64,000 nucleotides of DNA from Patescibacteria group bacterium (GTDB taxonomy: Bacteria; Patescibacteriota; JACPGU01). How positions within the stretch are numbered: the stretch's first letter is position 1; each line of letters opens with the position of its first letter. A program made the translations under genes and the position numbers. This document shows positions 3,130-59,179 of the stretch, one piece after another. The notes under the pieces are model-generated. The model was not told the DNA's origin. It did not search any database and saw only the letters and a program-made list of their open reading frames with translations. The stretch lies in the NCBI GenBank assembly GCA_022703645.1, contig JAKLDG010000001.1, positions 338,814-402,813 of the forward strand. The letters run 5' to 3'.

Positions 3130-4070
3130 GAAAAAGATATCTGCTACTATTAACATTATTAATAGTAGGTGGTTTTTGTATTTTTTCACGCGATAAAGCT
3201 TATTCCAGCGCTTCCGCCAAGATTTTTTATGGTGAAAGTTTTATGAAAGAAAACGGTTCCGAAACAAAACTATCGTCTGTCGATAGCGTCGAAATACCAT
3301 TTCAAAAAGAGGGCGCAAATGAACATGTTGCTATAAAAGCGCAAACTTATATTGCAGCTGATCGCGCGACTATGACGCCATTACTTGAAAAAGATGCTGG
3401 AAAAAAGGTCCAAATTGCCAGTATCACAAAATTGATGACCGCCGTTATCACGGTTGAAAACTCAAAACTGGATGATGTGGTTACGATTAACAGCACATTT
3501 AAAGACGCTCCGGATGGCAGAATGGGGCTTTACGTGACAGAAAAAATTACAGTTGAGAATATTCTCAATGGTTTGCTTATCTCTTCTTCAAATGATGCTG
3601 CTGAAGCTCTCGCATATTATATCGGGAAAGGTAATTATAAGTCTTTTATTCAAATGATGAATACAAAAGCGGCTGAAATTGGGATGAGTAATACGCGTTT
3701 TTCGAACGCTATGGGACTTGATAATGGCGAAAACTACTCAACTCCACAAGACCTGGTATATCTAGCAAATTATGCTTTAAAGAATGAATTTATTGCTAAA
3801 ACAGTTAAAACTCAAGAAAAGAGAGTAAAGAATATTGAAGGAACAAGCACTCATTACCTGAAAACTACCGACGAATTGCTCGCTGATAAAGACTTTGAAT
3901 TTTTGGGTTTGAAAACCGGTTCTACACCTGAAGCGGGGGAGTGCCTTCTATCTTTTGCGAAAACAAAAAACGGTCATGAAATCATAACCGTTGTGCTTGG
4001 TTCTATGGATAGGTTCGGTGAAACCAAAGAAATTGTAAAATGGGTAGATGCAAACATTACTTGGGAATAA
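3084..4070 (+). CDS. D-alanyl-D-alanine carboxypeptidase (PBP5/6 family serine peptidase)
   Basis: SxxK (SITK), SxN (SSN) and KTG (KTGS) motifs with an N-terminal membrane anchor. GTG start overlaps the rluB end. Confidence 0.8.
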   Translation: MAKNKSKRHKKVFRIRKRYLLLLTLLIVGGFCIFSRDKAYSSASAKIFYGESFMKENGSETKLSSVDSVEIPFQKEGANEHVAIKAQTYIAADRATMTPLLEKDAGKKVQIASITKLMTAVITVENSKLDDVVTINSTFKDAPDGRMGLYVTEKITVENILNGLLISSSNDAAEALAYYIGKGNYKSFIQMMNTKAAEIGMSNTRFSNAMGLDNGENYSTPQDLVYLANYALKNEFIAKTVKTQEKRVKNIEGTSTHYLKTTDELLADKDFEFLGLKTGSTPEAGECLLSFAKTKNGHEIITVVLGSMDRFGETKEIVKWVDANITWE

Positions 4071-45001: not shown

Positions 45002-46476
45002 AAAAAACAACGTTTAAAAAAATAGCCTACTTATTTTTGTCCACATTGATTTTTTGCGCTCTGATGACGCCTTTTAGCAGCTATGCGGCTGATTTGGCCA
45101 AAAAAAGCGGCAACAATTTTGGTATTACAAGAATTTCTATCGCGGATACTGATTATCCTTTAACTATTTCTATTTCTTCGGATAAAAATATAGTATTTAA
45201 TAATGGTTTAGACATAGCAAATTTAAAAGTTAGAATCGCAAATAGTAAAAAACAAGGCATTTCTGGAATTAATATTAAATTCAGTTCAGGCGGTAGGGAT
45301 ATAATTAATCCACCGGAAAATACCACAGACAATAATGGCATTGCATATTTCAAAGTCAGTTCTACCCAAGAGCATATCTCCAATTTTCAATTTAGCCTTA
45401 GAGACCCTACCAGCGGTGAGATTTATTCAAGTAATGTGGTAGCAATAAAGTTTTTGAGCCAAAGCCGCTTTAGTATGACCGTTAACTCTATCGCGGATTT
45501 CAAAAATAATACCGCCACAAAAGAGGCTGCTGCTTATGTTGTCGCTCCTGCGGCTACAGCTGTAATCGCCGTAAGCGCCTTTTCTCCAATTATTAATTTA
45601 TTAAGTTCTATTTTCCCATATTTGAATTACCTATTTAACGTAATATTACAGTTTTTTGGTATCAGAAGAAAACAAAAACCTTGGGGAATACTTTATGACA
45701 GCATGACAAAAGAGCCGATTGATCTTGGCACTGTCAGATTATTTGACGCAAAAACAAAAAATATCGTTCAAACCGCAACAACCGATAAGTCCGGAAGGTT
45801 TGGTTTTCCACCTTTATCAGGCAAATACTATTTAACAGCTGCTAAATACCAGTTTGGGTTTCCTTCAAAATTACTAAAAGGAGCGGTAGTTGACGGTAAA
45901 TATCACGGTTTATATTTCGGAGATAAGTTTAATTTAAAAAAGAATCAAAAACTTACTATTTCTGTACCAATTGACTTAGCAACCGCGGTAACTGCTCGGT
46001 TAAGATTGATAGACAGACTAAAAGCATTTTCAGAAAAGATATCGCGTCCTTTTTTGGTGGTAAGTCTGATGGTCACGTTGGTTATGCTTTGGATAAATAC
46101 AACCCTATATAATGAAATATTGATCATACTATATATATTGATGATTCTTACTATGAGGCGCATTCGCACATCAGCCATTATTCCATGGGGTATTATTTAT
46201 GATTCAAAGACTAAAAAACCGCTCAAGAGTATGCCGATTAAAGTATTTGATAAAAAATACAATAAATTGTTGGAAACGCGCGTCAGCGATGAAGCTGGCA
46301 GATTTACTTTCATATTACCGAAAGGGGAGTATTATTTCAAAATTGCTGATTTTCATTATCAGATAGATTTAAAAGCAAAAGAGTTAGGCGGCAATAAAAA
46401 CTATCATGGCGAGATTTTCAAGGTAGAAGAGAATGAGGTTTTAAGGTTTAATATTCCATTAAAAAGTTTAAAATAG
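44998..46476 (+). CDS. Membrane protein: signal peptide, Ig-like domain, TM blocks alternating with two carboxypeptidase-regulatory-like domains
   Basis: ATGA start/stop overlap with the upstream gene. WGILYDSMTKEPIDLGTVRLFD...KSGRFGF and WGIIYDSKTKKPLKSMPIKVFD...EAGRFTF each follow a TM segment. Confidence 0.7.
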   Translation: MKKTTFKKIAYLFLSTLIFCALMTPFSSYAADLAKKSGNNFGITRISIADTDYPLTISISSDKNIVFNNGLDIANLKVRIANSKKQGISGINIKFSSGGRDIINPPENTTDNNGIAYFKVSSTQEHISNFQFSLRDPTSGEIYSSNVVAIKFLSQSRFSMTVNSIADFKNNTATKEAAAYVVAPAATAVIAVSAFSPIINLLSSIFPYLNYLFNVILQFFGIRRKQKPWGILYDSMTKEPIDLGTVRLFDAKTKNIVQTATTDKSGRFGFPPLSGKYYLTAAKYQFGFPSKLLKGAVVDGKYHGLYFGDKFNLKKNQKLTISVPIDLATAVTARLRLIDRLKAFSEKISRPFLVVSLMVTLVMLWINTTLYNEILIILYILMILTMRRIRTSAIIPWGIIYDSKTKKPLKSMPIKVFDKKYNKLLETRVSDEAGRFTFILPKGEYYFKIADFHYQIDLKAKELGGNKNYHGEIFKVEENEVLRFNIPLKSLK

Positions 46477-46500: not shown

Positions 46501-49500
46501 ATGATTGTGGTAAAGAAAAAGAAAATACCTTTAAGACCGTTTTTAATCCTCTTAGTGTTAATAGCTGGGTTTACTTTGAGTTTGGGTTTAAAACCAAATG
46601 AAAAAATAAAAGCGGCTTATTCTAATCCTTGCAAGACAGCTGGCACGTATGCTGGTTATGTAGTTGACGCGAATCTTAATGTTATTATTCCGGCTTACAA
46701 TAATGCTGTGTTTGGTGACACTTTCTATGATAGTACCAGCAAAGAAATTCATTGTAAAAGCATAACGATAGAAACGGGAGCGACTTTAGATATATCGCCA
46801 AAAACTACCGGTGCAAGTAAAACAGGCGGCACAAATTATAGAAGATTGGTTCTTGATGGTGATTTGAATATCGCAAGCGGTGGAACGCTAAATCTATATG
46901 GCGGCAATATATATAATACCGGCGGACTCAATGGCACTGGGATAACAAATGATGGAAAAGGATATGGTATGAATGTTATGGTTGGTGGAAATGTTTTGGT
47001 TGAATCCGGCGGATGGATATCAGCTGATGGCAAAGGGTATGAACATAGTAAGGGGCCGGGAGCAGGTGTGGCTGAACCCGGTTCACAAGGCGCTGCATAT
47101 GGTGGGGCTGGTCCGGATGGAACCAATTGTTATGGGAAATATTACGGTTCGGTTTCTGACCCGATAGAACTCGGCAGCGGCAGTAGTTTGGGAGTAGGAG
47201 GCGGAGTAGTTGATATAACTGCCGCGGGAACAATATTAATTCGCGGCGTAGGCAAAATTACGGCAAACAGCATTGGAGAGGGATCGGGCGGTTCAGTAAG
47301 ACTCAGCGCCAATACTATTAGTAGTACAATTGACGGCGTAAATATACCTTCTATTACAGCAAATGGCGGTAGTGGGTCTTATTACAGTGGCGGCGGCAGA
47401 ATCGCGCTTTTTTATAATTCATCAAATTTTGGCGGTGATATCAAAGCTATTGCTAACGCCTATGGAGGAGCTGGCACTGTATTCAAGAAAAAAAATATCG
47501 AGGCTTATGGTGATTTAATTATTACAAATAATTATCAGGATCATACCGATAACCCTCCGGACTATACTCCATATGCATATACAAAAATTGGCAAAACAAA
47601 AATCGATTCTGGCACATATAAGAATATCACAGTTAATAAAAGAGCAAACGCTATTATTGAATCTAGTAATATAGTAAACATCAATGGTGGTACTTTTGAA
47701 GTAAATAATTCCAAACTTGAAAATAAAGGCACTTTAGCTTCACAGACTTCCGCAGAAAAATTTCTGGCGAAAAATACCGCTCGGATACTTAATAGCGGTA
47801 CAGGGTTATTTAGCCTGTCCGCGAACTCAAACGCTATATTTGACGGCATAGACACTTATTTTGAGAACCAAAATAATATTATCCAAAATTTCGCCAATTT
47901 AACTATCTCTAACGGGGCTGTCATGAGCCATGCCGTCAATGATGCTACCGGTGTGACAAATTGTCTTAGGAATTCAATTGATAATCCAGTTGGCGGCGCG
48001 ATCCCTCCTTGCGAATATAAGGATTGGGGTGATGGCTATGGGAAACATTGGAATCAAAAATATACCTTAAGGATAAATGCCACAAGTGTTAATATTGATA
48101 ACAAAAGTTCGATAGATGTTTCACAAAAGGGATTTCAAACATTACCTGGAACATCAGGTTTTGGGCCGGGAGGGTCAAGTACGGCTTACTCAATCGGTGG
48201 TTACGCGGGAGGTTCTTATGGTGGCAGAGGTGGTAACGATAATACTGGGGGAGTAAGCGCAGATATTTATGGCGACTCGGATGGAGACCTGAATAATCCA
48301 AATGATCTGGGAAGCAGCGGTGATACCGGCTATACTGCCGGAGGATTAGTAAGAATAACAGTTTTGGGCGATATTGTTAATAATGGCTCTATATTATCAA
48401 ATTCAGGTACGGTTTCAAATGGTTTTGCCGGTGGGTCAGGAGGAGGCATAAGATTGGATGCAGACCGGATTCTCGGAGCTGGAAAAATTTCTGCCAACGG
48501 CATGCCCGGAACGATAGATCTTGCGAAAGGCGGCGGAGGAGGCGGAAGGATCGCGATCACATACAAAACCACAAAAGATTTTTATGGTCCAATTACCGCT
48601 TATGGAGGGTCTACTGATGGGGGACCCGGTACGATACTTTTTGCAAACAATAGCTCGGGAGCCTTAATTGATAAAGAACTTGTTATTTCTAATTCAGTTT
48701 TAAACGACAATCCAACCAAAATAGGAGGCGGTACGTATAAAAATATTACCGTAAAGAATACCTCGCCAACTCTTACTGACCTGACTTTAGCCGCAATCGT
48801 TTCTGGACAATCCGTTGTCATGCAAGATGGTGGGAATTTTGAAGTTAACCAAACTAATTTAACTAATAGCGGAACTATTTCTTTATTAGCCGGAACGTCA
48901 AATTTAGTTATAAAGGGAAAATCAAATTTTATTAATATCGGACCTACCGCCTCTCCTGGCATTAACGCGAATAGTACTTCTAAAGTTATTTTGGACAATG
49001 CCAATTTTGAAAATAAGAATAATATTGAACAGAATTTTGGCAATCTTTATATCCAGAATGGAGCAATATTAACGCATACTCAAAATGATTACTTAACGGT
49101 AAATTGCGTGAATACTTCCTGTACCAACCAAGACCTGGGTGATGGCAATGGAATGCATTACAATCAGGCTTATACATTAAGAATACATGCAAACAATGCT
49201 TTAATTGATAAATTTAGCGCTATTAATGTTGATGGCAAGGGCTATGACATGGGTAGAGGACCGGGTAATAATGGGTCTGCTAATTCTGCCGGAAGTTATG
49301 GCGGAGCTGCGTCAAGCGGCGACAGTACCTATGGTTTAGCGGATAACCCTAATGATTTGGGCAGTGGAGGTTATTCCGGTAGTTATGGTGATAATACCGG
49401 CGGCGGTTTAGTAAGAGTTAGGGCAGACGGTAATATAACAGTTGATGGCTTTATTTCTTCGGATACAACATCTGCCGGATCTTTTGACGGCGCTTCAGGA

Positions 49501-52500
49501 GGCGGTATAAAATTAATAGCAAATAGTATTCTTGGCTCCGGTTCTATTTCCGCTAGTTCTAATTTGACAAGCGGGAATATTGGCGGAGGTGGCAGAATAT
49601 CTCTCATAGCTACGCAAAAAAATTACAGCGGCACCGTCTCTGTGAATAGAGGTGGAACTGGAGCGAATTACGGTACTATTTATGATTCTCTGGCTATCCC
49701 TACGACTTATGGTCCGAGCGCAACACCATTAACTTATAATACAAAATTAAGTAATAATACTCCATATATAAAAGCCGATAGTTCAGCAACAACGATAGGT
49801 GTTGATGAAGGCAATGCAGTTAGCACTGGATATACTCCAGATTCTGATACCTCACTTCTTTTGAAAATGGATAACTGGGGAGATGGTCTTATTTATGATT
49901 CTTCCGCAAAATCAATACCTGTTATTAAATATGGCACAACTTCCTTCTCTGATACTGTTTTGAAAACTGGAACGCATTCACTATTATTTAATGGTTCCAC
50001 AGGTCGTTTAATACCTGATGGTACTTTTACATCAAATTTCCAGTATGGCACCGGAGCTTTTACTATTGATACTTGGATTTATCCAAAATCTGTTACGACA
50101 CTTCAAACAATTTATTCTCAAAAAAATAGCGCGACACCAACAACTAATGCATCATCATTACAAATTACTACTACCGGTCAGCTAAAATATACTGAAAATG
50201 GAGTTTCTATTATTTCTCCTGTCAGTACTATAAAACTAGGCAGTGATGTCGGATGGCAACATGTTGCTTTAGTTAGAGATAATTTAGGGGTTGAAAGATT
50301 ATTTTATAATGGTTCCGTAGTAGGAACACAGTCGTCTACATACTCCAAATTCAGCGATGTCGGTATCGGATGTTTATACCAGTCTACTAATACATTATTT
50401 TATAATGGCTATATGGATGAGTTCCGTATCAGTAAAGGAGTGGCGCGCTGGACCTCTGATTTTATTCCATTATCTGATGATGGCAACTGGGAAAAATTAA
50501 ATTTGAGAGCAACAAGGACTAACCCTAGCTCCGATACTAAGCTTTTGCTTCATCTCGATGGAACAAATGGATCAACTACCTATACTGACAGTTCTCCTTC
50601 AAACCATACAATATTGCGTTACAACACACCAACAATTTCCACTAACACTAGTAAATTTGGCGGCGCGTCAGGCGCTTTCCCGAGAGTAACCTCTCCATAC
50701 TTTGATTATATTTATGCTAATGATAATGTTAATGATTGGACTTTTGGCGCGGGTGATTTTACGATAGATTTTTGGGCTAACTTTTCAGATAATGTCAGGC
50801 AAGGTGTTCTTGCCATCGGCTCCGGCGCTTATGCTCCAATTGCTTTTGAAGTAGTAAGCAACAATCTTAACGTCTACATGACTAGTAATGGTAGCAGTTG
50901 GGATATCGCTAGCGGTCAACCAGTTGGCCAAACATTTGGTCCGGTAACACCAGGCGTTTGGGTACATTATGCGCTAACAAGGAATGGAAATACTTTTTAT
51001 CTTTTTGTTAATGGTACTACTGTAAACTCTTTTATGTCATCATTAAGTTTATGGAATAATAGCGGCGCTTTATATATAGGGCAATATTTTGGGTCTGTTA
51101 CAGCCTTTAAGGGCTATCTGGATGAATTTAGAATTATAAAGGGAAGAGCGGCTTGGAGTAATAATTTTACTCCTTCTACAACTCCCTATGAAATTTATGA
51201 TGACCCGTCTTTCAATGGAACGGTAGATATTGGCATAATAGATAATCTTGCAGGTGAATATGTTTTTTCCGGCTGCAACGGAGCGAACTGTACTTTTTCA
51301 GATTCAAAAGTTACAGCGAGATTCATAAATGGTATTGCTAATTTAGCAGTAAAAGTAAAAGACAAAAGAGATGGGCAGATAAAGCATCACGGTTTTTCAG
51401 GGCTAAAAATTAACTCCGTTTCAAATGTATCTTATATAAATAATAATCAAATAACCGGAGCTATCGAAATTCAAGATAGAACCCCAGAAAGATCAATACC
51501 ATCAGGTCCTGCCCCCGCAGGAAGTATTACTAAAGGAACTGCTGGCGCTACTATTTTTCCAATGGGAGCCGGTTTTAGTATTATAAATAATTCCAAAGGA
51601 ACCAGTCAGAGCCAACAAGATTTGGGTGGTAATTTAGTGGTTCGAGGTCCATTAGCATCCGCGCCATATCGTCTTTACCTTGATAAAAACATAATGTATA
51701 AAAGAGGTGATTATTTGAATAGCGACGGAACTATTAGCAGCGTGGCAACAGATTATCAAGTGGTTTGTGTTAATACAGCGGACTATACCCAAACAAAAAT
51801 AAGATGTAATGATGATCTGAGCACCAGCGCTATTCCATCAGGATTGCGAAATTATGGTATATATACATTTAATAAAACTTATAATTTCTATACCCAGAAC
51901 GAAACCTCTAATTATTCAGCGCCTTCAATATCTCAAGTTCTTATACCAGCTAGCAACCCAACTGTGCCTGTTATTTCTCCTTTAACAATAACTCCGACTA
52001 ACGGAAAATTAAATCTCAGCTGGAATAATCCAATTGATAATATCGGGCAAACAAAAACTTTGATCGTTAGAGGTATCGATAGTATTCCTACTTTCGTTCC
52101 AAGTGATGGGACGGATTATAATACCTGGTCAAATACTACTGTAACCGGAGAAGAGATGATCTATGACAGCACTAATGTCGGGGCGGGAAGTGAAGTAAAA
52201 AACTTTGACGATGCCAATGTATTTTTTGGAACCAGATACTGCTATACAATCTATGCTCAATATATTGGTTATATTTATTCGGTAGGGACTTCTGCTTGCA
52301 GCACTCTAACATCAATTATTGATCCGCCAGTCAACCCAACTATCACGATTCAAGGAATGATGATAAATATCGGATGGACAGCGCCACCTTCCGGCAATCC
52401 TGATAATTACCTGATTGTTAGAAAAAAAGGCACAACAGAACCAAACTGGAATCCAACCGGGGAAACTGCTGACTATAATATTGGTGATACGGTTGGCGAT

Positions 52501-55500
52501 GGTGTTGTTGTCTGTAAAGGATTTTCATGCACTGATCAAAATGTAAATGTAAATACTTTGCCAACCCAGTATTATTATAAAATTTATGCTCAGTATGGAA
52601 CCGCGGCTCCCTTCAGTTATTCTGTCGGTTCAACGGCAGTAAGCGGAAATCCTAACCCGGAAAACCCCCAAAAGTTTGATAATACCAATGAAGCAACACC
52701 AAGTGTAACACTGGACAATCTATCAGGACCTTACACGCCTCTTAATACATTTAAGATTGCAAATTATCTTGTCTGGAAAGCAACAACTCCGGCTGATTGC
52801 TCAGGGGCTTGGACGCCAACCAATGGAGCTGACTATTCAGGAGTGCAAGGAACTGGAAATATCATTTACAAAAACCCAGCAGCGCCAATATCATATATTG
52901 ATACTGCAGTTACAAATGGCGTTGGTTATTGTTACAAAATCTTTGTCCAATATAATGGTGAAACAATCAATACTACTGATCTAATGTATTCTTCTGGATT
53001 AAGTCTTTGGACTCAACCGCCAAATCATAATCCAACAATTAGCGTAAATAGCATCACCCAAACGATCGGCACGGATAATGTGGTAATTAACTTTAATGTA
53101 AATGATATTGATCCATCTGATAATGGCAAGCTTTCTGTTGGCTTTGCTGTTACAAATCCGGTTTCAGGATGCAGTATTAGCACTTTAACCGGACCAATAA
53201 CTAACCTCGGTGTCGGAGCTCATAGCGTTACTTGGACCGCCACTACCACTAATGGAACCGCGGGGGATTGTCCAGGCGTAGAAATGTTAGCCGGTTCTGC
53301 TCAACTGACAGCCACTGTTTCCGATTTTATCGGAGCCACCGGTACCGCTAGTCCAACTTTCTCTCTTGACACCAAAGCTCCCATTGCAAGTTCCAGCCTT
53401 ATTTTGTCCTCCAAAAACAGCAACTCCATTACTGTCGCTACCGGAGCTACCGGGGCTACTGATGGAAACATAAAAACTACCGCTGCCTATAAAGTCTATT
53501 ACAAGCAAGGATCAACGGTAGACGAAGTAAGCGGTACGCAAATACTACCAAATATTAATAGTTATGTTGCGGGACAGATATTTACTGCTTCCTCGCTAAT
53601 AACTAACCAGCAATATTCATTTAATATCTGGGCTTATGATAACTATGGACATAAAACTGCTGCTACGGTATTAAATGTCAGCACAAAAGGAAAATCTGTT
53701 ACAGGATTTACAGCTATAGTTCAAGGTATGAGAGTCCATCTGAGTTGGGACGCAATGCTGCCGGCGCCAGATAAGCATCTGGTTATTCGTAAGAAAGGAA
53801 CATCCGCGTCTACTTGGACGCCAACAGATGGTATTGGAATATATGCTGCTGGCAACACGGTAGATGCAGATACGATAGTAGTTTACCATGGCACAGGCGT
53901 CACTCTGGATGATGATGCAGTTGATGGAGCAGCCTATACCTATACTATCTTTGCCAACTATTCTGGAAATCTATATTCAGAGGGGGTTTCAGCTCCATCG
54001 ATAACACCGAATGCTCTGAACGCGTCGTTATCTGCTCCTGCCTATATACCAAATGGATCAAATTATGATATCGCACTCAACTGGGTAGCCCCCACACCAA
54101 GTTACAGTTTACAAAAATATGTAGTAGTTAGAGAAGTTGGGTCTCCTACTTGTTTAATCGAATGGACGCCAACCAAGGATAATAACTATAATGCATTAGA
54201 TCCAACCGGCTTTACTAATGAAGAAATTATCTATTCCGGAACCGGAACCACTACTACTGATAATATGGGAGGAACGGGAGTTTCTTCTGGTACAAATGTT
54301 TGCTATAAGATCTTTACTCAATATCTGGGAGATGATTTAGCGGTTCCAACAAACTTAGTTTATTCCGCTGGAATTGCCGCTACCTATGTACCGCCAAATC
54401 TGCCTCCAGAGATAGAGATTGGTTCAGTCACAGCGCTACAAACTACCGGAACTGAAAATATTGTTATAGCTTACCGTGTTAGAGATTCCGACTCAACCAA
54501 TTTGAATATTACATTTAGCATGATTGATCCGGGAGGCTCCACTTGCCAAATGAATTTAACTGATAATTTGGCGGGGATTGATGGCACTTACTATACTCAT
54601 ACCGCTACTTGGAATGCAGGGCTGGCAGGAGAGTGCCCGGGATTTGAAGTAACAAATGCTGTTATCCAAGTAACTGCCAGCGATAGTCTTAATTCTGTTT
54701 CGCAAAACTCCGCTCCATTTCTGCTTGATACTCTATCCCCAAGGCTTCCAACTCCAACTGTTTCTAACTTTAATTTAACTAATTTTTCATCAACAGGAGA
54801 TAAGATATTCTTCAATCTAGGATCTAATTCAACAACTGATACTAATGCGCTTAACTACAAGATATACTATGCTTCTGGGGGAAGTGTTGATGAAACAGGA
54901 ATACTCATAACAGGAGCTCCTATAGCATTTACTCCTGGAGCTGCATATTCGGTAACCGGATTAACACCGGGACAAAACTATACATTTAATATTTGGGCTT
55001 ATGATAAATATGGGCATAAAACTTCTGCGACTTCCGTAACATATTCAACTATTGTGCCTGCTCCGGCAAGCTTCTCTGTAACTCCGCATGGAATGAGATT
55101 ATCACTTACTTGGACGGCTCCTGTCGGTGGAACCCCAGACTATTATCTGATAGTTAGAAAAGCTAATTCAGATCCAATAATAGCTCCCGCTAATGGTTCT
55201 ACATACAACCTGGGGGATATTTTGAGCGGGGGAATGGTAGTCTACAATTCAACCGGGACAAGCCTTGACGATGATAATATTGATGACGGTCCTTACTATT
55301 ACCGAATTTATGCGCATTATTCAAATGGCAATTTCTCACCAGCCTTGGCTGGCAATGCGATTGCAGTGGCGGAAGGACCAAATACATTCAGCGCAACCTC
55401 AAGCCCAGCGCCAGTAGTCACATACATAGACACTCCACCAACAAATAATTTCAGTTTCGAGAACTATCTTATTTGGAAGAAAGAACAACCTAGCTGTACT

Positions 55501-57534
55501 ACTGATGGCAATCTGGTAGACGGTACGGTATATAATTATCTTGATTCAGTAGATGGGGGAACGATTATTTATAAATCAAACATTGATCCTAATGGTATGT
55601 CTGATATCTCAACTACAATAACTGGCCATACTTACTGCTACAAGATGTTCGTAGAGTATAATGGAGAAACTACTAATACTATCTATTCTAATGAAATGTA
55701 CTTTCAAATCACTCCTCCAAATAATCCTCCGACTCTTTCCGCTCTTTCTGTTGTTCAAACAATAGGTAGTGACGATGTTGTAATCGGATTTACTATTAAT
55801 GATCCGGATGGAATTGACGCTGGCAATCTCTCAGTCGCTTTATCAATTGTTAACCCTCCAGAAGGATGCAGTATCGGTACAATATCTGGTTCTTTGACTG
55901 GTTTATCAAATGGTAGTTATTCGGTTACTTGGACTGATGCCGATACTACTTGCCCTGGGCTTGAATTATCTAATGCTGGTTTAGAGTTTATTGCTCACGA
56001 CCTGATAGATTATTCATCTGCGCAGATAAGCAGTTTTTTACTCGACACTAAAGCGCCTACACTAATAGAGGGGCTAACATATGACCCACCAACCGCAGAT
56101 ACTATTGTAGTACGCCTAAGCACCAATACATTCTTCTTAAATCCTTTGAGTGTTGATCAAAATCTAAAAGGAGGAGGAAATAGCTTTAAGATTTACTACA
56201 AACAAGACAGTACCGTTTCAGAATCCGATACACAATTAGCTGCCTTTGATAATTATATCTTAGGGCAAGACTATACGGCCACACCATTAGGATCTAATTC
56301 ACAATATTCATTTAATATCTGGGCTTATGATAACTATGGACATAAGACAGCATATACTGATCCAGTCAAGCCAACTACCAGCGGTCTCAACGGACCACCA
56401 GTAGTACAATATGTTGCTCAACCAGTCCAAGCTGCTGGTACTGGTAATATCAATTTCAGTTTTGAAGTAAAAGATCCAGACTCGGATGGTTTAACTATCA
56501 CATTCTCACTAATTAATAATCCAGTCGGTTGCAGTATCTCTGGCGTTACTGGGTTTACCAATCCTGTATCCTCCACCAGTACTTTTGCAACAATTATCTC
56601 CAGCTGGAATGCGAAATTAACTTGTGATGGAGCGGATCAGTCTGACCTCAAGATCAGAATTAGCGCGGATGATGGAAACGGACATACAGCAACTATTGAT
56701 TCAGATCCATTTACTATCGATACGAAAAATCCTGTCTCTCCAGGAAACCTATCATTCCCAGCAGGAACTACTTTTGCGAATCAGGTTAGTGTAAAGACAA
56801 ATACTATTTCCGGTAGCGATACTAATGCCGATGATTGGCATGTATATAGGGTTGATGGAAATACTTTCCCAACGGATCCATTCTCTCCTGCTCTAACTCC
56901 AATTAAATTATATGATCCTTATATACCAGATGACGTATTTATTGATTCGGGGTTAACGCCAGATTCTGATTATACTTATAATATCTGCCTGCATGATACT
57001 TTTATGAACTTTACCTGCGCAACATCGCAAACTATTCATACACCAGCTTCAATATTAAGCTTTAATATTCTTGGTATTGCCAGTGGAATATCGGTTGGAG
57101 TTGAAACAACTAATATCACTACTACTTCTACAACAATTCCTTTTGGCAGTACTACAGTAGGGGATACAAAGGTTGGAGCGCTTGATCTACAAGGCACAAC
57201 AAATCTGGTTAATGGATATACTATTGATATCAGACAAGACCAAGATTTAACATCAGGAGGCAACACTATTCCTGCCCTTACCTCTACTAACGCTAGTCCG
57301 CAAGTATGGCCACCAACTCCAATTAGTTCTTTCTTTGGATATTCATCAATCAATCTTTCCAGATTTTCAAATGGCGTTAATTGGGCAGGATTAACTTTGT
57401 CTGACCTACCGATAGTAACACAGATAAACGGGACTCATGATGATGATGTTTTATTCAAATTATCCACCAAGAGTCCTCAACCAGCAGGAACTTATCAAAA
57501 CACCATTACTTTCTCAATAATGGCGAATCCGTAG
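46501..57534 (+). CDS. Giant (3677 aa) secreted/surface protein: three Gly-rich beta-helix-like blocks, two LamG-like domains, FN3-like repeats, four Cys-pair/Asp-rich modules, distinct C-terminal domain
   Basis: Single uninterrupted ORF with an N-terminal TM/signal. LamG-type motifs GTGAFTIDTWIYPKS...YMDEFRISKGVARW and GAGDFTIDFWANFSD...YLDEFRIIKGRAAW. The repeated motif FNIWAYD(N/K)YGHKT occurs three times. Confidence 0.85.
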   Translation: MIVVKKKKIPLRPFLILLVLIAGFTLSLGLKPNEKIKAAYSNPCKTAGTYAGYVVDANLNVIIPAYNNAVFGDTFYDSTSKEIHCKSITIETGATLDISPKTTGASKTGGTNYRRLVLDGDLNIASGGTLNLYGGNIYNTGGLNGTGITNDGKGYGMNVMVGGNVLVESGGWISADGKGYEHSKGPGAGVAEPGSQGAAYGGAGPDGTNCYGKYYGSVSDPIELGSGSSLGVGGGVVDITAAGTILIRGVGKITANSIGEGSGGSVRLSANTISSTIDGVNIPSITANGGSGSYYSGGGRIALFYNSSNFGGDIKAIANAYGGAGTVFKKKNIEAYGDLIITNNYQDHTDNPPDYTPYAYTKIGKTKIDSGTYKNITVNKRANAIIESSNIVNINGGTFEVNNSKLENKGTLASQTSAEKFLAKNTARILNSGTGLFSLSANSNAIFDGIDTYFENQNNIIQNFANLTISNGAVMSHAVNDATGVTNCLRNSIDNPVGGAIPPCEYKDWGDGYGKHWNQKYTLRINATSVNIDNKSSIDVSQKGFQTLPGTSGFGPGGSSTAYSIGGYAGGSYGGRGGNDNTGGVSADIYGDSDGDLNNPNDLGSSGDTGYTAGGLVRITVLGDIVNNGSILSNSGTVSNGFAGGSGGGIRLDADRILGAGKISANGMPGTIDLAKGGGGGGRIAITYKTTKDFYGPITAYGGSTDGGPGTILFANNSSGALIDKELVISNSVLNDNPTKIGGGTYKNITVKNTSPTLTDLTLAAIVSGQSVVMQDGGNFEVNQTNLTNSGTISLLAGTSNLVIKGKSNFINIGPTASPGINANSTSKVILDNANFENKNNIEQNFGNLYIQNGAILTHTQNDYLTVNCVNTSCTNQDLGDGNGMHYNQAYTLRIHANNALIDKFSAINVDGKGYDMGRGPGNNGSANSAGSYGGAASSGDSTYGLADNPNDLGSGGYSGSYGDNTGGGLVRVRADGNITVDGFISSDTTSAGSFDGASGGGIKLIANSILGSGSISASSNLTSGNIGGGGRISLIATQKNYSGTVSVNRGGTGANYGTIYDSLAIPTTYGPSATPLTYNTKLSNNTPYIKADSSATTIGVDEGNAVSTGYTPDSDTSLLLKMDNWGDGLIYDSSAKSIPVIKYGTTSFSDTVLKTGTHSLLFNGSTGRLIPDGTFTSNFQYGTGAFTIDTWIYPKSVTTLQTIYSQKNSATPTTNASSLQITTTGQLKYTENGVSIISPVSTIKLGSDVGWQHVALVRDNLGVERLFYNGSVVGTQSSTYSKFSDVGIGCLYQSTNTLFYNGYMDEFRISKGVARWTSDFIPLSDDGNWEKLNLRATRTNPSSDTKLLLHLDGTNGSTTYTDSSPSNHTILRYNTPTISTNTSKFGGASGAFPRVTSPYFDYIYANDNVNDWTFGAGDFTIDFWANFSDNVRQGVLAIGSGAYAPIAFEVVSNNLNVYMTSNGSSWDIASGQPVGQTFGPVTPGVWVHYALTRNGNTFYLFVNGTTVNSFMSSLSLWNNSGALYIGQYFGSVTAFKGYLDEFRIIKGRAAWSNNFTPSTTPYEIYDDPSFNGTVDIGIIDNLAGEYVFSGCNGANCTFSDSKVTARFINGIANLAVKVKDKRDGQIKHHGFSGLKINSVSNVSYINNNQITGAIEIQDRTPERSIPSGPAPAGSITKGTAGATIFPMGAGFSIINNSKGTSQSQQDLGGNLVVRGPLASAPYRLYLDKNIMYKRGDYLNSDGTISSVATDYQVVCVNTADYTQTKIRCNDDLSTSAIPSGLRNYGIYTFNKTYNFYTQNETSNYSAPSISQVLIPASNPTVPVISPLTITPTNGKLNLSWNNPIDNIGQTKTLIVRGIDSIPTFVPSDGTDYNTWSNTTVTGEEMIYDSTNVGAGSEVKNFDDANVFFGTRYCYTIYAQYIGYIYSVGTSACSTLTSIIDPPVNPTITIQGMMINIGWTAPPSGNPDNYLIVRKKGTTEPNWNPTGETADYNIGDTVGDGVVVCKGFSCTDQNVNVNTLPTQYYYKIYAQYGTAAPFSYSVGSTAVSGNPNPENPQKFDNTNEATPSVTLDNLSGPYTPLNTFKIANYLVWKATTPADCSGAWTPTNGADYSGVQGTGNIIYKNPAAPISYIDTAVTNGVGYCYKIFVQYNGETINTTDLMYSSGLSLWTQPPNHNPTISVNSITQTIGTDNVVINFNVNDIDPSDNGKLSVGFAVTNPVSGCSISTLTGPITNLGVGAHSVTWTATTTNGTAGDCPGVEMLAGSAQLTATVSDFIGATGTASPTFSLDTKAPIASSSLILSSKNSNSITVATGATGATDGNIKTTAAYKVYYKQGSTVDEVSGTQILPNINSYVAGQIFTASSLITNQQYSFNIWAYDNYGHKTAATVLNVSTKGKSVTGFTAIVQGMRVHLSWDAMLPAPDKHLVIRKKGTSASTWTPTDGIGIYAAGNTVDADTIVVYHGTGVTLDDDAVDGAAYTYTIFANYSGNLYSEGVSAPSITPNALNASLSAPAYIPNGSNYDIALNWVAPTPSYSLQKYVVVREVGSPTCLIEWTPTKDNNYNALDPTGFTNEEIIYSGTGTTTTDNMGGTGVSSGTNVCYKIFTQYLGDDLAVPTNLVYSAGIAATYVPPNLPPEIEIGSVTALQTTGTENIVIAYRVRDSDSTNLNITFSMIDPGGSTCQMNLTDNLAGIDGTYYTHTATWNAGLAGECPGFEVTNAVIQVTASDSLNSVSQNSAPFLLDTLSPRLPTPTVSNFNLTNFSSTGDKIFFNLGSNSTTDTNALNYKIYYASGGSVDETGILITGAPIAFTPGAAYSVTGLTPGQNYTFNIWAYDKYGHKTSATSVTYSTIVPAPASFSVTPHGMRLSLTWTAPVGGTPDYYLIVRKANSDPIIAPANGSTYNLGDILSGGMVVYNSTGTSLDDDNIDDGPYYYRIYAHYSNGNFSPALAGNAIAVAEGPNTFSATSSPAPVVTYIDTPPTNNFSFENYLIWKKEQPSCTTDGNLVDGTVYNYLDSVDGGTIIYKSNIDPNGMSDISTTITGHTYCYKMFVEYNGETTNTIYSNEMYFQITPPNNPPTLSALSVVQTIGSDDVVIGFTINDPDGIDAGNLSVALSIVNPPEGCSIGTISGSLTGLSNGSYSVTWTDADTTCPGLELSNAGLEFIAHDLIDYSSAQISSFLLDTKAPTLIEGLTYDPPTADTIVVRLSTNTFFLNPLSVDQNLKGGGNSFKIYYKQDSTVSESDTQLAAFDNYILGQDYTATPLGSNSQYSFNIWAYDNYGHKTAYTDPVKPTTSGLNGPPVVQYVAQPVQAAGTGNINFSFEVKDPDSDGLTITFSLINNPVGCSISGVTGFTNPVSSTSTFATIISSWNAKLTCDGADQSDLKIRISADDGNGHTATIDSDPFTIDTKNPVSPGNLSFPAGTTFANQVSVKTNTISGSDTNADDWHVYRVDGNTFPTDPFSPALTPIKLYDPYIPDDVFIDSGLTPDSDYTYNICLHDTFMNFTCATSQTIHTPASILSFNILGIASGISVGVETTNITTTSTTIPFGSTTVGDTKVGALDLQGTTNLVNGYTIDIRQDQDLTSGGNTIPALTSTNASPQVWPPTPISSFFGYSSINLSRFSNGVNWAGLTLSDLPIVTQINGTHDDDVLFKLSTKSPQPAGTYQNTITFSIMANP

Positions 57535-57575
57535 AAACAATTAATCAAGAAAACAAAAAAAACAACAAATCAAAT

Positions 57576-58289
57576 ATGCTAAAAAAAATATCTACAACCC
57601 TTCTCATTACTGCTTCCATATTAATATTCTCCAACCAAGCCTTGGCGCAAGAAACTACTAACACTATCAGCTCTTCTGTTTCTCCAGCGTTAATTAGTCT
57701 CAAATTAGATAAAGGAGAAACTAAAAGCTCTTCTTATGAGTATGTCAATGGTACTGATGATAATCTTATAATTACTATTAGCACTAGAGCCTTTGCTCCT
57801 AGTAATGGGGAACATGGAACCCCGCTATTTATAGACAAAGATGGAAAAAAGGTTACTTCACCCTTAACCAGTTGGATTAAATTAAATGAGAGTAGTATGA
57901 GTGTTAAGAAAGGGGAGAAAGCAACTGTAAACTTTCAGATTAATGTTCCTTCTGATGCAAAAGAAGGCAAATACTTTGCAGCTATATTTAATACAGAAAC
58001 TGATGGGGGGTCAGATAGCGGTTCATTAGTAAAGAAAGAGTTGGGAGTTACTCTGGTTGTTGAAGTTCTCGCCCCCAAACCAATACCAGGCACTACTACA
58101 ACCACATGGCAGAAAGACAATCTTCTTTCCTATATTATTTTTGGTGCTGCGTTATTGGCATTACTATTATTAATTGCTGCGATATTTAAGAGGAAAAAGA
58201 AAACTCCAAAATTCTTCCCGGAAGAGGAAAGGAAAGAGTTAGTAAAGAAAGTAAAACGAAAAGTAAAAATCACCAAAAATAAAAAATAG
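57576..58289 (+). CDS. Secreted beta-sandwich-like protein with C-terminal TM and Lys-rich tail (DUF916-like, inference)
   Basis: Signal peptide, LTSWIKLNESSMSVKKGEKATVNFQINVPSDAKEGKYFAAIF, TM LLSYIIFGAALLALLLLIAAIF, then KRKKK. Confidence 0.55.
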   Translation: MLKKISTTLLITASILIFSNQALAQETTNTISSSVSPALISLKLDKGETKSSSYEYVNGTDDNLIITISTRAFAPSNGEHGTPLFIDKDGKKVTSPLTSWIKLNESSMSVKKGEKATVNFQINVPSDAKEGKYFAAIFNTETDGGSDSGSLVKKELGVTLVVEVLAPKPIPGTTTTTWQKDNLLSYIIFGAALLALLLLIAAIFKRKKKTPKFFPEEERKELVKKVKRKVKITKNKK

Positions 58290-58321: not shown

Positions 58322-59179
58322 ATGAGCAATCAAGACGATGTCCGCATAAATATTTTAGGAATTCCTATCGATCGGGTAGGTTATATTGATGTTTTAGATA
58401 AGATTGAATACTATATAAAAAAAGGCGGGTATCACTATATCGCAACGGTTAATCCAGAGTTTATTATGCACGCGGCGCAAGATAGCGAGTTTAAAAAAGC
58501 ACTACAAAATTCGAACTTAAATACAGCTGATGGCGTCGGAATCGTATGGGCAAGTAAATATCTTGCGAAAACTCAAAAATCAAATCTCAAATCTCAAAAT
58601 TTAAGCATCACTTCGCGATTTATTTATAAAATCAAAAAGATATTCTGGTTGAAAATTTCTTTGTTCTCAATTTTATTTAACCGTCGTTGGCTCTATTCTG
58701 AAATTCCGGAGCGTGTTACCGGAGCAGACCTGATCTGGAAAATAGCAAAAAAAGCGCAAGATGAAGGCTGGAAAATTTTCCTACTTGGAGCAGGGGAGGG
58801 AGTCGCGGGAAACGTTGCGGGAAAATTGAAATCAAAATTCCCGAAAATTAATATTGTCGGTACTTATTCAGGCCGCCCGGAAGAAGAGGGGATTGCTGAT
58901 AGAGTTGCCGGATATGAACCGGATATTTTGTTTGTTGCTTTTGGCTCTCCTCGACAGGAAAAATTCATTTATAACAATTTGGATAAGCTCAATGCAAAAG
59001 TTGTTATTGGAGTCGGTGGAACATTTGATTTTATTGCTGGGCTAGCAAGAAGAGCGCCAAGATTTATGAGGAGATTCGGAATTGAATGGTTATGGAGACT
59101 TGTCTGCCAACCATTTCGAATCGGCAGAATTATCAACGCTTTTCCAAAATTTGTCTGGAAAGTTTGGAGGGGTAAATAA
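58322..59179 (+). CDS. WecB/TagA/CpsF-family glycosyltransferase with ~40-aa insert
   Basis: VNPEFIM, NTADGVGIVWA, ERVTGADL, FLLGAGEGVA, LFVAFGSPRQE, RAPRFMRRFGIEWLWRL. Confidence 0.8.
   Translation: MSNQDDVRINILGIPIDRVGYIDVLDKIEYYIKKGGYHYIATVNPEFIMHAAQDSEFKKALQNSNLNTADGVGIVWASKYLAKTQKSNLKSQNLSITSRFIYKIKKIFWLKISLFSILFNRRWLYSEIPERVTGADLIWKIAKKAQDEGWKIFLLGAGEGVAGNVAGKLKSKFPKINIVGTYSGRPEEEGIADRVAGYEPDILFVAFGSPRQEKFIYNNLDKLNAKVVIGVGGTFDFIAGLARRAPRFMRRFGIEWLWRLVCQPFRIGRIINAFPKFVWKVWRGK

What the first reader, a model, noticed from the sequence alone, without database searches (positions are those of the whole stretch)
57045..58289. C-terminal domain of the giant protein plus the next gene resemble a WxL/DUF916-type cell-surface pair
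The last ~165 aa of the giant protein are unlike the rest of it: SILSFNILG...IPFGSTTVGDTKVGALDLQGTTNLVNGYTIDIRQDQDLTS...PAGTYQNTITFSIMANP. They follow the sequence logic I remember for WxL domains of Firmicutes: a ...FG...v...l.v.D.r...GW.v.v... core and a ...aGtYtatltWtLtdaP ending, but with the Trp positions replaced. The downstream gene has the DUF916-like pattern (SWIKL....v.v..gek..v.f.i.vP.da..G.y) followed by a TM helix and a KRKKK tail, as in the partner proteins of WxL (Csc-type) clusters. If this is real, it would be a divergent non-covalent wall-anchoring system that holds a giant adhesin.
Basis: inference. Interest (0 to 1): 0.55.

Follow-up and report, generated by a model that had tools for sequence, protein, structure and literature searches.

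The report
Giant adhesin's pilin-like anchor pair
The last 163 residues of a 3677-residue surface protein of a Patescibacteria (CPR) bacterium form a pilin-like domain, and the next gene encodes a membrane-anchored relative of the Gram-positive WxL-interacting protein, so the pair most likely fastens the giant adhesin to the cell by strand complementation.

Summary
Residues 3515-3677 of the giant protein (window 57043-57531) are a discrete, confidently folded domain (AF2 pLDDT 95). The 237-aa gene that follows encodes a signal peptide, one beta-sandwich, a TM helix and a basic tail.

It is a remote homologue of the DUF916/PGBD domain of Firmicutes WxLIP:
- Pfam PF06030: E=2e-5, just under threshold.
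- hhalign: 95-98% probability.

- No PF13731 hit in it or in 44 relatives.
- hhalign: only 14-16% probability.
- No Trp-x-Leu motifs.

Instead the domain belongs to a large Patescibacteria-specific family: 970 clusters, almost always at the extreme C-terminus of proteins of 130-5200 aa. The family is distantly related to the C-terminal domain of the recently described CPR Pam pilins. Its nearest solved folds include many donor-strand-exchange pilins (Fim, Pap, Csu, TasA), alongside other beta-sandwich domains such as the GH123 N-domain.

In 65 of 72 assessable related loci the domain-bearing gene is followed immediately by WxLIP-like membrane proteins.

Best reading: a donor-strand-type anchoring or assembly module for giant CPR adhesins. 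This is a new variant of a known kind.

The parts
46501..57534 (+). Giant secreted surface protein, 3677 aa. It has an N-terminal signal/anchor helix, Gly-rich repeat regions, two Laminin_G_3 domains, many FN3/Ig-like repeats and the C-terminal pilin-like domain.
   Evidence: ORF list and translation. Pfam Laminin_G_3 at 91 bits and a weak fn3 match.
57043..57531 (+). C-terminal domain (CTD), aa 3515-3677. It is a member of a Patescibacteria-specific family of C-terminal domains, distantly related to the Pam pilin C-terminal domain, and its structural neighbours include many donor-strand-exchange pilins.
   Evidence: 970 family hits; NF058581 in 38/44 members; window E=2.5e-5; pLDDT 95.3; TasA, FimA/F/G, PapA, CfaB, CsuA/B and archaeal bundling pilin, alongside GH123 N-domains and PapD-like/ASH domains.
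57055..57075 (+). Conserved N-terminal beta-strand of the CTD (LSFNILG, aa 3519-3525; family consensus L-x-F-x-x-x-G). It lies upstream of the part matched by the Pam_pilin_C model. It is a candidate linker/donor strand or self-complementing strand.
   Evidence: AF2 strand E5-11 with pLDDT >90. Family consensus. The NF058581 match starts only at fragment residue 28. The role is inferred.
57478..57531 (+). C-terminal motif QPAGTYQNTITFSIMANP (family consensus Q-x-A-G-x-Y-x-x-x-I-x-Y-I-x-V-P-x-F). It is the only stretch that aligns with the second WxL motif (Y-x-t-l-t-W-x-L-x-x-x-P).
57576..58289 (+). 237-aa partner gene: signal peptide, one DUF916/WxLIP_PGBD-like beta-sandwich, C-terminal TM helix and basic cytoplasmic tail.
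57684..58070 (+). DUF916-like (PapD-like/MSP-like) beta-sandwich domain, aa ~37-165.
57792..57863 (+). Conserved but low-confidence hairpin/loop, aa 73-96 (FAPSNGEHGTPLFIDKDGKK...). It is a candidate strand donated to the CTD, by analogy with the WxLIP hairpin.
   Evidence: Invariant residues 72-91. Family consensus V-x-N-F-x-P-x-G-E-x-G-x-x-x-F-x-P. pLDDT 55-60 there. The analogy is to PMC10599100. The role is inferred.
58122..58286 (+). TM helix (aa 183-206) followed by a Lys/Arg-rich tail (aa 207-237).
   Evidence: AF2 helix 183-206. Sequence.
42920..46476 (+). Context: two upstream same-strand genes (693 and 492 aa) for membrane-spanning Ig-like/CarboxypepD_reg proteins. They are probably in the same transcription unit.
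58322..59179 (+). Context: WecG/TagA/CpsF-family glycosyltransferase gene, 33 nt downstream of the partner gene.
   Evidence: TIGR00696, 138.8 bits.

Best explanation
The giant protein is a Sec-exported adhesin. Its last 163 residues are a pilin-type C-terminal module of the kind used by the Pam pili of CPR bacteria: a beta-sandwich that is completed or held by a strand from another protein.

The 237-aa protein encoded 41 nt downstream stays in the cytoplasmic membrane through its C-terminal helix. It presents a single WxLIP/DUF916-type (PapD-like) beta-sandwich on the outside.

I propose that this domain captures the adhesin's C-terminal module as it emerges from the Sec channel, by beta-strand complementation. 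It then either keeps hold of it, acting as a one-subunit 'pilus' and so a non-covalent membrane anchor, or hands it on.

Shown:
- the domain boundaries;
- homology of the partner to WxLIP domain 1;
- sub-threshold relationship of the CTD to the Pam pilin C domain;
- a beta-sandwich fold of the CTD whose solved neighbours include many donor-strand pilins;
- conserved gene adjacency.

Inferred:
- physical binding of the two proteins;
- which strand is donated;
- whether the hold is permanent.
For: 1. Partner = WxLIP-type protein.
- PF06030 E=2e-5.
- hhalign 94.8% and 98.0% against genuine WxLIPs taken from plasmid WxL clusters.
- TM helix and basic tail.

2. CTD = Pam-related module with pilin-like structural neighbours.
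- NF058581 CPR_Pam_pilin_C hits the window CTD at E=2.5e-5 and 38/44 family members (best 6e-12). PamT hits 5 members.
- The closest homologue, P0001 (38% identity), lies in a cluster with two proteins that pass the Pam_pilin_C cut-off (92.7 and 93.6 bits against 55) and a two-domain WxLIP-like TM protein.
- The family HMM finds those two proteins at E~2e-7.

3. Conserved coupling.
- The same pair occurs in L004.
- In 65 of 72 assessable genome loci, the CTD gene is followed at once by two WxLIP-like paralogues. The median CTD-bearing ORF across those loci is ~2056 aa.
- The window protein hits these paralogues at 1e-14 to 1e-10 in a single phmmer round.

4. Published precedent.
- Membrane-anchored PapD-like chaperones PamC/PamD and a TM anchor PamR are proposed to complement Pam pilin CTDs.
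- AF2 predicts that a WxLIP hairpin completes the WxL sandwich.
- The corresponding loop of the 237-aa protein is the most conserved part and is poorly ordered in the model.
Against: - Binding is therefore inferred from homology and synteny only.
- The Pam_pilin_C match of the window domain is far below NCBI's cut-off (24.4 against 55 bits) and covers only profile positions 2-58.
- The AF2 monomer is a complete, confident domain with its own N-terminal strand. A free groove has therefore not been demonstrated.
- The partner has one domain, whereas PapD-like chaperones, WxLIP and most CPR relatives have two.
- The 65 syntenic loci are largely orthologues of one operon, so they are not independent observations.
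- The 237-aa model rests on only 3 sequences (mean pLDDT 65).
Confidence: 0.6

Rival explanations
1. The giant protein is one subunit, tip or lateral, of a multi-subunit Pam-like filament whose shaft pilins are encoded elsewhere in the genome. The 237-aa protein is then only a transient membrane-bound chaperone (PamC/PamD-like). The adhesin's conserved N-terminal CTD strand is donated to, or its groove filled by, another pilin, not the partner.
For: - The CTD family keeps a conserved strand upstream of the Pam_pilin_C-matching part, as the Pam linker strand does.
- Many family members are 350-450 aa, the size of PamA/PamB.
- Some loci carry two or three CTD genes (L001, L024, L036, L057, L084).
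- The partner resembles fimbrial chaperones.
- The Pam model has ordered multi-pilin filaments.
Against: - The window holds no second CTD-bearing ORF.
- Most related loci hold just one giant CTD gene plus the WxLIP-like genes.
- The partner has a single domain, unlike two-domain chaperones.
- The rest of the ~867-kb genome could not be searched.
Confidence: 0.22
2. The C-terminal domain is a divergent WxL domain that binds peptidoglycan directly, and the DUF916 protein merely stabilises it on the wall, as proposed for Csc/WxL clusters of Firmicutes.
For: - The partner is a genuine WxLIP homologue.
- The domain is C-terminal in a large adhesin and also occurs as small stand-alone proteins, as WxL does.
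- The hhalign score against WxL is above all controls, and the alignment is colinear with three motifs.
- A cell-wall glycosyltransferase gene follows.
Against: - No PF13731 match in the window or in 44 relatives.
- hhalign probability is only 5-16%.
- There are no Trp-x-Leu motifs.
- The cluster definition of one WxLIP plus two WxL proteins is not met in the window.
- Peptidoglycan binding by WxL itself is debated in the cited papers, which place the motifs in the buried core.
Confidence: 0.12
3. There is no functional coupling. The C-terminal domain is just another Ig-like spacer of a repetitive surface protein, and the downstream gene is an unrelated small membrane protein.
For: - Ig-like sandwiches cross-match widely: GH123 N-domains and ASH domains appear.
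- All library matches of the CTD are below curated thresholds.
Against: - In the listed family members the domain is terminal rather than internal, in proteins of 130-5226 aa.
- Adjacency to WxLIP-like genes holds in three divergent lineages of the family (26/30, 102).
- The partner's homology to WxLIP is statistically strong.
Confidence: 0.04

Closest known systems
Pam pilus system of CPR bacteria (PamA/PamB/PamE/PamT pilins, PamC/PamD membrane-anchored chaperones, PamR anchor; Troman et al., bioRxiv 10.64898/2026.03.03.709456; NCBIfam NF058581, NF058579)
   Same: - It is exclusive to CPR.
- The CTD matches the Pam_pilin_C model (sub-threshold) and has chaperone-usher pilins among its structural neighbours.
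- The adjacent gene encodes a PapD-like sandwich with a C-terminal TM helix.
- A close homologue of the CTD sits in a cluster with proteins that pass the Pam_pilin_C cut-off.
   Different: - The pilin N-terminal domain (~200-350 aa) is replaced by ~3500 aa of adhesin repeats.
- The score is far below the family cut-off.
- There is one single-domain partner, not two two-domain chaperones.
- No other pilin, PamT or PamR gene lies nearby.
- The described distribution is Saccharimonadia/Microgenomatia, whereas this family is mostly in MAGs labelled Paceibacteria/Parcubacteria, Kaiserbacteria or Nomurabacteria.
- Identity of the partner family with PamC/PamD could not be tested.
WxL / WxLIP (Csc) cell-surface clusters of Lactobacillales and Listeria (PF13731, PF06030, PF11797; Siezen 2006; Hassan & Williamson 2022, 2023)
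   Same: - The partner is a true remote homologue of WxLIP domain 1, with the same signal peptide - sandwich - TM helix - basic tail layout.
- CPR relatives align over both WxLIP domains.
- The logic is the same: small stand-alone domain proteins and large adhesins that carry the domain at the C-terminus.
- A partner strand is predicted to complete the domain.
   Different: - The CTD is not detectably a WxL domain: no Pfam hit, no Trp-x-Leu motifs, hhalign 5-16%.
- The window partner has no DUF3324 domain.
- There is no NQIDKxxxYFDLK motif.
- There is no LPXTG protein and no second domain-bearing gene in the cluster.
- The host is a CPR bacterium, not a Firmicute.
Chaperone-usher pili of Gram-negative bacteria (Fim, Pap, CFA/I, Csu) and other donor-strand filaments (TasA, archaeal bundling and thread pili)
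   Same: - The CTD's solved structural neighbours include these subunits.
- The partner's neighbours include their PapD-like chaperones.
   Different: - There is no usher and no outer membrane.
- The chaperone-like protein is membrane-tethered and has a single domain.
- Sequence identity is 8-17%.
- The resemblance is of fold and presumed mechanism only.

Membership tests
WxL domain (Pfam PF13731) | Match to the PF13731 profile at or above the gathering score | tested here: not met
   No hit at E<=10 for aa 3481-3677. No hit at E<=0.01 in any of 44 family members.
WxL domain (Pfam PF13731) | Two conserved Trp-x-Leu motifs on adjacent strands | tested here: not met
   The corresponding positions read GYTIDI and ITFSIM. 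Genuine WxL domains fetched here show GWxL and W-x-L.
WxL domain (Pfam PF13731) | Profile-profile similarity to genuine WxL domains | tested here: inconclusive
   hhalign gives 5.3% with 15 sequences, 14.2% with 26 sequences and 16.1% for the window subfamily, at P~0.002, with 29 C-terminal columns. The score of 26.8 exceeds the reversed, shuffled and unrelated-sandwich controls of 6.5-20.7.
WxL domain (Pfam PF13731) | Always the C-terminal domain of large adhesins; also occurs as small single-domain proteins | tested here: met
   This criterion is not specific, because Pam pilins meet it too.
WxL domain (Pfam PF13731) | [quoted passage not shown] 2023 definition) | tested here: not met
   Only one CTD-bearing ORF in the 64-kb window. 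Definition quoted.
WxL domain (Pfam PF13731) | Binding to peptidoglycan | not testable with these tools
   Needs purified domain and sacculi.
WxLIP / DUF916 PGBD (Pfam PF06030) | Match to the PF06030 profile at or above the gathering score (27.3 bits) | tested here: inconclusive
   25.1 bits, E=2e-5, profile 21-117/121. Homologue P0004 scores 26.1 bits. Both are just under the cut-off.
WxLIP / DUF916 PGBD (Pfam PF06030) | Profile-profile and structural similarity to genuine WxLIP | tested here: met
WxLIP / DUF916 PGBD (Pfam PF06030) | Second domain DUF3324/HBD following DUF916 | tested here: not met
   The 237-aa protein has one sandwich, then the TM helix. Two-domain CPR relatives do align over both WxLIP domains.
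WxLIP / DUF916 PGBD (Pfam PF06030) | N-terminal signal peptide and C-terminal TM helix | tested here: met
   Helices at aa 3-17 and 183-206, with a basic tail.
WxLIP / DUF916 PGBD (Pfam PF06030) | Conserved NQIDKxxxYFDLK motif near the N-terminus | tested here: not met
   The corresponding stretch reads SVSPALISLKLDKGE. Motif quoted.
CPR Pam pilus system (NCBIfam NF058581 / NF058579) | Match to CPR_Pam_pilin_C at or above the cut-off (55 bits) | tested here: not met
   24.4 bits, E=2.5e-5, profile 2-58/148 for the window. 38/44 relatives match below the cut-off, best 6e-12. Two neighbours of the closest homologue pass at 92.7 and 93.6 bits.
CPR Pam pilus system (NCBIfam NF058581 / NF058579) | C-terminal domain with a truncated Ig-like pilin fold like chaperone-usher pilins | tested here: inconclusive
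CPR Pam pilus system (NCBIfam NF058581 / NF058579) | PapD-like chaperone with a C-terminal TM helix encoded in the same operon | tested here: met
CPR Pam pilus system (NCBIfam NF058581 / NF058579) | Restricted to CPR/Patescibacteria | tested here: met
   Named hits and genome loci are almost all Patescibacteria.
CPR Pam pilus system (NCBIfam NF058581 / NF058579) | Assembly into filaments by donor-strand exchange | not testable with these tools
Needs AF-Multimer, cryo-EM or biochemistry.

The most novel reading that the evidence does not exclude
The WxL/Csc clusters of Firmicutes and the Pam-type pili of CPR bacteria are branches of one ancient, usher-less strand-complementation system for single-membrane envelopes. 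In this system a membrane-tethered PapD-like protein (WxLIP/PamC-D) holds or polymerises a C-terminal module. In Paceibacteria-type CPR the module has become the general attachment handle for their enigmatic giant (2000-5000 aa) surface proteins. These proteins might even polymerise through the handle into 'bottle-brush' fibres.
Probability: 0.3. Interest if true: 0.75.

Novelty: new variant of a known kind. Interest (0 to 1): 0.55.

Why it matters
CPR/Patescibacteria are thought to live attached to host cells, and their small genomes often spend 1-2% of their coding capacity on single giant surface proteins. How those proteins are held on a cell that has no outer membrane is not known.

This analysis identifies a recurrent C-terminal handle: about 970 sequence clusters, almost always terminal, on proteins up to 5226 aa. 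It also identifies a dedicated membrane-anchored partner encoded next to it. That turns the question into a directly testable protein-protein interaction.

The analysis also gives statistically strong evidence that the partner family is homologous to the WxL-interacting proteins of lactic acid bacteria, enterococci and Listeria. The Pam-pilus preprint does not mention this link. If the link extends to the handle itself, it would tie together two surface systems that have so far been described separately.

Tried and rejected
- Word-indexed homologue search with the CTD alone found a single relative. The family appeared only with the exhaustive HMMER scan.
- The afdb50 library was unavailable. 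Comparison with AlphaFold WxL models was therefore impossible.
- The PDB holds no detectable WxL domain. A CTD-family profile finds nothing in PDB sequences.
- The search for related loci with the broad alignment failed for lack of conserved stretches. It was repeated with a tighter subfamily, which biases the loci towards one orthologous operon.
- A literature search for the paper behind PDB 9i1y/9i25 (EfmWxLIP1) found nothing.
- NCBIfam has no model that matches the CPR WxLIP-like proteins. The equation with PamC/PamD therefore rests on architecture and synteny.
- I considered a T9SS-type C-terminal sorting domain and an LPXTG or other CTERM sorting signal for the partner's tail. The only such hits were E 0.06-3.3 on the TM helix, so I rejected them.
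- I considered chance resemblance to WxL motifs. It is not fully rejected, because the score is above controls but not significant.

Full report
**What is there**

- The window comes from a Patescibacteria (CPR) genome. The 237-aa protein is identical to 'hypothetical protein P5096_03295 [Patescibacteria group bacterium]' on an 867-kb contig.
- ORF 46501..57534 (+) encodes a 3677-aa protein. It has an N-terminal signal/anchor helix, Gly-rich repeat regions, two Laminin_G_3 domains and many FN3/Ig-like repeats.
- ORF 57576..58289 (+) starts 41 nt downstream and encodes 237 aa.
- From 42.9 to 59.2 kb, five same-strand genes are packed with gaps of 0-41 nt. No + strand terminator-like site lies in any of the gaps.

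**The C-terminal domain is a real, separate, widespread module**

- A word-indexed search found one relative: P0001, 254 aa, Parcubacteria, 38% identity.
- An exhaustive HMMER scan of 1.84 billion cluster representatives found 970 proteins at E<=1e-3 and 401 at E<=1e-10.
  - In all but one of the 150 listed proteins the match is at the extreme C-terminus.
  - The proteins range from 131 to 5226 aa.
- The family consensus ends Q-x-A-G-x-Y-x-x-x-I-x-Y-I-x-V-P-x-F.
- Within the 64-kb window only aa ~3515-3677 match the family HMM (127 bits).
- AF2 with 56 family sequences gives pLDDT 95.3 and pTM 0.90. The fold is all-beta, with a strand at fragment residues 5-11 and a last strand at 155-161.
- All named relatives are hypothetical proteins of Patescibacteria, Parcubacteria, Kaiserbacteria or Pacebacteria, with no precomputed Pfam domain.

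**Is it a WxL domain? Not detectably**

- PF13731 does not match the domain even at E<=10, nor any of 44 relatives at E<=0.01.
- To test the idea properly I fetched genuine WxL clusters from Enterococcus, Listeria, Lactiplantibacillus, Lactococcus and Niallia plasmids. From these I built alignments of 15 and then 26 WxL domains.
- hhalign against the CTD family gives 5.3% and 14.2% probability, and 16.1% for the window subfamily. P is ~0.002, with only 29 columns aligned over the last strand pair.
- That score (26.8) is above reversed (9.4), column-shuffled (6.5-11.5) and unrelated-sandwich (14.6-20.7) controls.
- A very distant relationship therefore remains possible but is not shown. The defining Trp-x-Leu motifs are absent.

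**What the domain does match**

- NCBIfam NF058581 'CPR_Pam_pilin_C' hits the window domain at E=2.5e-5 (24.4 bits against a cut-off of 55). It hits 38 of 44 family members (best 6e-12). NF058579 'PamT' hits five members.
- These models derive from a 2026 preprint (10.64898/2026.03.03.709456). It describes cryo-EM structures of PamA/PamB filaments of Ca. Mycosynbacter amalyticus:
  - each pilin has an N-terminal domain, a linker strand and a truncated Ig-like C-terminal domain completed by the neighbour's linker strand;
  - PapD-like chaperones PamC/PamD carry a C-terminal TM helix;
  - there is a CTD-only tip pilin, PamT, and a TM anchor, PamR.
- The closest homologue, P0001, lies in a Parcubacteria cluster (L001) with four other relevant genes:
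  - two ~190-aa proteins that pass the Pam_pilin_C cut-off (92.7 and 93.6 bits);
  - a 315-aa two-domain protein with a signal peptide, a weak DUF916 match and a C-terminal TM helix;
  - a 2749-aa giant protein.
- The CTD-family HMM finds the two bona fide Pam-type proteins at E~2e-7.
- Foldseek against the PDB returns TasA fibre, FimA/F/G, PapA, CfaB, CsuA/B, CupB6 and the PapG pilin domain, with GH123 glycosidase chains interleaved (E 4e-4 to 3e-2).
- So donor-strand-exchange filament subunits are prominent among the neighbours, but the list is not exclusive to them and the scores are moderate.

**The partner is a WxLIP homologue**

- PF06030 (WxLIP_PGBD, formerly DUF916) matches aa 42-137 at E=2e-5, 25.1 bits, against a gathering score of 27.3. 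Its homologue P0004 scores 26.1 bits.
- The AF2 model was built from only three sequences. Mean pLDDT is 65, but the core is 85-90.
- hhalign of the window protein plus its two homologues against seven genuine WxLIPs gives 94.8%, E 5.5e-8.
- With 120 CPR relatives it gives 98.0%, E 3e-13, over 233 columns spanning both WxLIP domains. Controls are <=1.2%.
- The window protein has only the first domain, then the TM helix and basic tail. It lacks the NQIDKxxxYFDLK motif of Firmicutes WxLIP.

**Gene adjacency is conserved**

- P0004 (48% identical to the 237-aa protein) sits directly after a 1326-aa LamG/Big_12 protein that ends in the same CTD subfamily...QPAGNYTNTVIFSIIANP.
- A scan of one genome per species returned 78 loci.
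  - Nearly all are from MAGs labelled as CPR lineages: Paceibacteria, Parcubacteria, Kaiserbacteria, Nomurabacteria, Patescibacteria or 'uncultured Candidatus Saccharibacteria'.
  - Three are short contigs labelled as other phyla.
- The median CTD-bearing ORF across these loci is ~2056 aa.
- In 65 of the 72 loci with enough downstream sequence, the CTD-bearing ORF is followed immediately by two paralogous genes of ~340 and ~550 aa.
- The window protein hits these at 1e-14 to 1e-10 in a single phmmer round.
- Both paralogues have a signal peptide, a DUF916-like domain, a second sandwich and a TM helix. The longer one adds a C-terminal LytR_C domain.
- Shorter CTD proteins (441-496 aa) have the same followers (L069, L070, L079, L084).
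- These loci are largely orthologous, so the count shows conservation across species. It does not represent 65 independent events.
- Independent support comes from three divergent lineages: the window/L004 subfamily, L001 and the mainstream family.

**Mechanism proposed**

- Both published precedents use beta-strand complementation.
  - Pam chaperones and PamR are predicted to insert a strand into the pilin CTD.
  - AF2 predicts that a disordered WxLIP hairpin becomes a strand that completes the WxL sandwich next to its N-terminal strand.
- In the 237-aa protein the stretch at aa 72-91 is almost invariant among its homologues (AF.PS.GEHGTP.F.D..GK). In the wider family the consensus is V.NF.P.GE.G...F.P. 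This is the least confident part of the sandwich, with pLDDT 55-60.
- I therefore propose the following:
  - the membrane-tethered partner donates this element, or its N-terminal strand, to the adhesin's CTD as it leaves the Sec channel;
  - it thereby holds the 3677-aa fibre on the cell.
- The alternative is that the CTD's own conserved upstream strand (LSFNILG, aa 3519-3525) is exchanged between CTD-bearing subunits, as in Pam filaments. This strand lies outside the part matched by Pam_pilin_C. The partner would then act only as a chaperone.
- I could not model the complex. The binding, the donated strand and the permanence of the hold are all inferences.

**Comparison and novelty**

- The pair works like a Pam pilin-chaperone pair and like a WxL-WxLIP pair.
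- It is a statistically supported, though truncated, member of the WxLIP superfamily on the partner side.
- On the handle side it is a sub-threshold relative of the Pam pilin C domain.
- It is not a demonstrable WxL domain.
- Relative to both known systems it is a variant: a giant adhesin takes the place of the pilin body, there is a single one-domain partner, and no further pilin genes lie nearby.
- The Pam preprint mentions neither WxL nor DUF916, and its Discussion does not raise giant adhesins.
- The homology between CPR WxLIP-like proteins and Firmicutes WxLIP suggests the two systems are related. Whether the handles (Pam CTD and WxL) are also homologous remains open.

**Verdict**

- The finding is a new variant of a known kind and is of moderate interest (0.55). 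It offers a concrete, testable answer to how CPR giant surface proteins are attached.

Noticed in passing
window 42920-45001 and 44998-46476 (+): Two genes directly upstream of the giant gene, with overlapping stop and start codons. They encode 693- and 492-aa proteins with a signal peptide, Ig-like/Big_1 repeats, internal TM segments and CarboxypepD_reg/SpaA-like prealbumin domains. They are probably co-transcribed with the adhesin. Role unknown.
   Followed up: partly
window 58322-59179 (+): A WecG/TagA/CpsF-family glycosyltransferase gene (TIGR00696, 138.8 bits) lies 33 nt after the partner gene. It is a cell-envelope glycopolymer enzyme next to the anchoring pair.
   Followed up: partly
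L007-L084, about 1.0-2.7 kb downstream of the CTD gene (e.g. L044 9489-11165): The second WxLIP-like paralogue (~550 aa) of the mainstream loci has two TM helices and a C-terminal LytR_C domain (PF13399, E 1e-8 to 3e-6). This suggests a link to the cell wall.
   Followed up: partly
alignment A6 (P0232 and relatives) versus window 57310-57345: The mainstream CTD family has a conserved Cys pair (T-G-C-x-x-S-A-x-G-C-F-G-Y-H). The window/L004 subfamily lacks it (WPPTPISSFFGYSS). Pam pilins are also reported to have paired cysteines.
   Followed up: no
L001 10001-10765 (P0001); also P0061 and P0085: Short family members carry a repeated N-terminal 'S-S/T-x-N/D-F ... G ... S-G-F-L-Y-F' motif just before the CTD. 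It matches the N-terminal half of the PamT model weakly (E 7e-8). Function unknown.
   Followed up: no
L001 10777-11871: A 364-aa protein with a signal peptide and a C-terminal TM helix lies between the PamT-like gene and the Pam-type pilin genes. It has no family match and could be a PamR-like anchor.
   Followed up: no
L059, L060 and L067: Three CTD loci sit on short contigs binned as Dehalococcoidia, Azotimanducaceae and Syntrophomonadaceae. Mis-binned CPR contigs are more likely than real occurrences outside CPR.
   Followed up: no
window 27021-28724 (+): A 567-aa ORF that by eye resembles a GspE/PilB-type secretion or type IV pilus ATPase (Walker A GPTGSGKST). The genome may therefore also encode type IV pili.
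   Followed up: no
PDB entries 9i1y and 9i25: Solved structures of E. faecium EfmWxLIP1 exist; 9i1y was released in January 2026. No associated paper was found in the library. 9i25 has at least three chains and might be a complex worth inspecting.
   Followed up: partly
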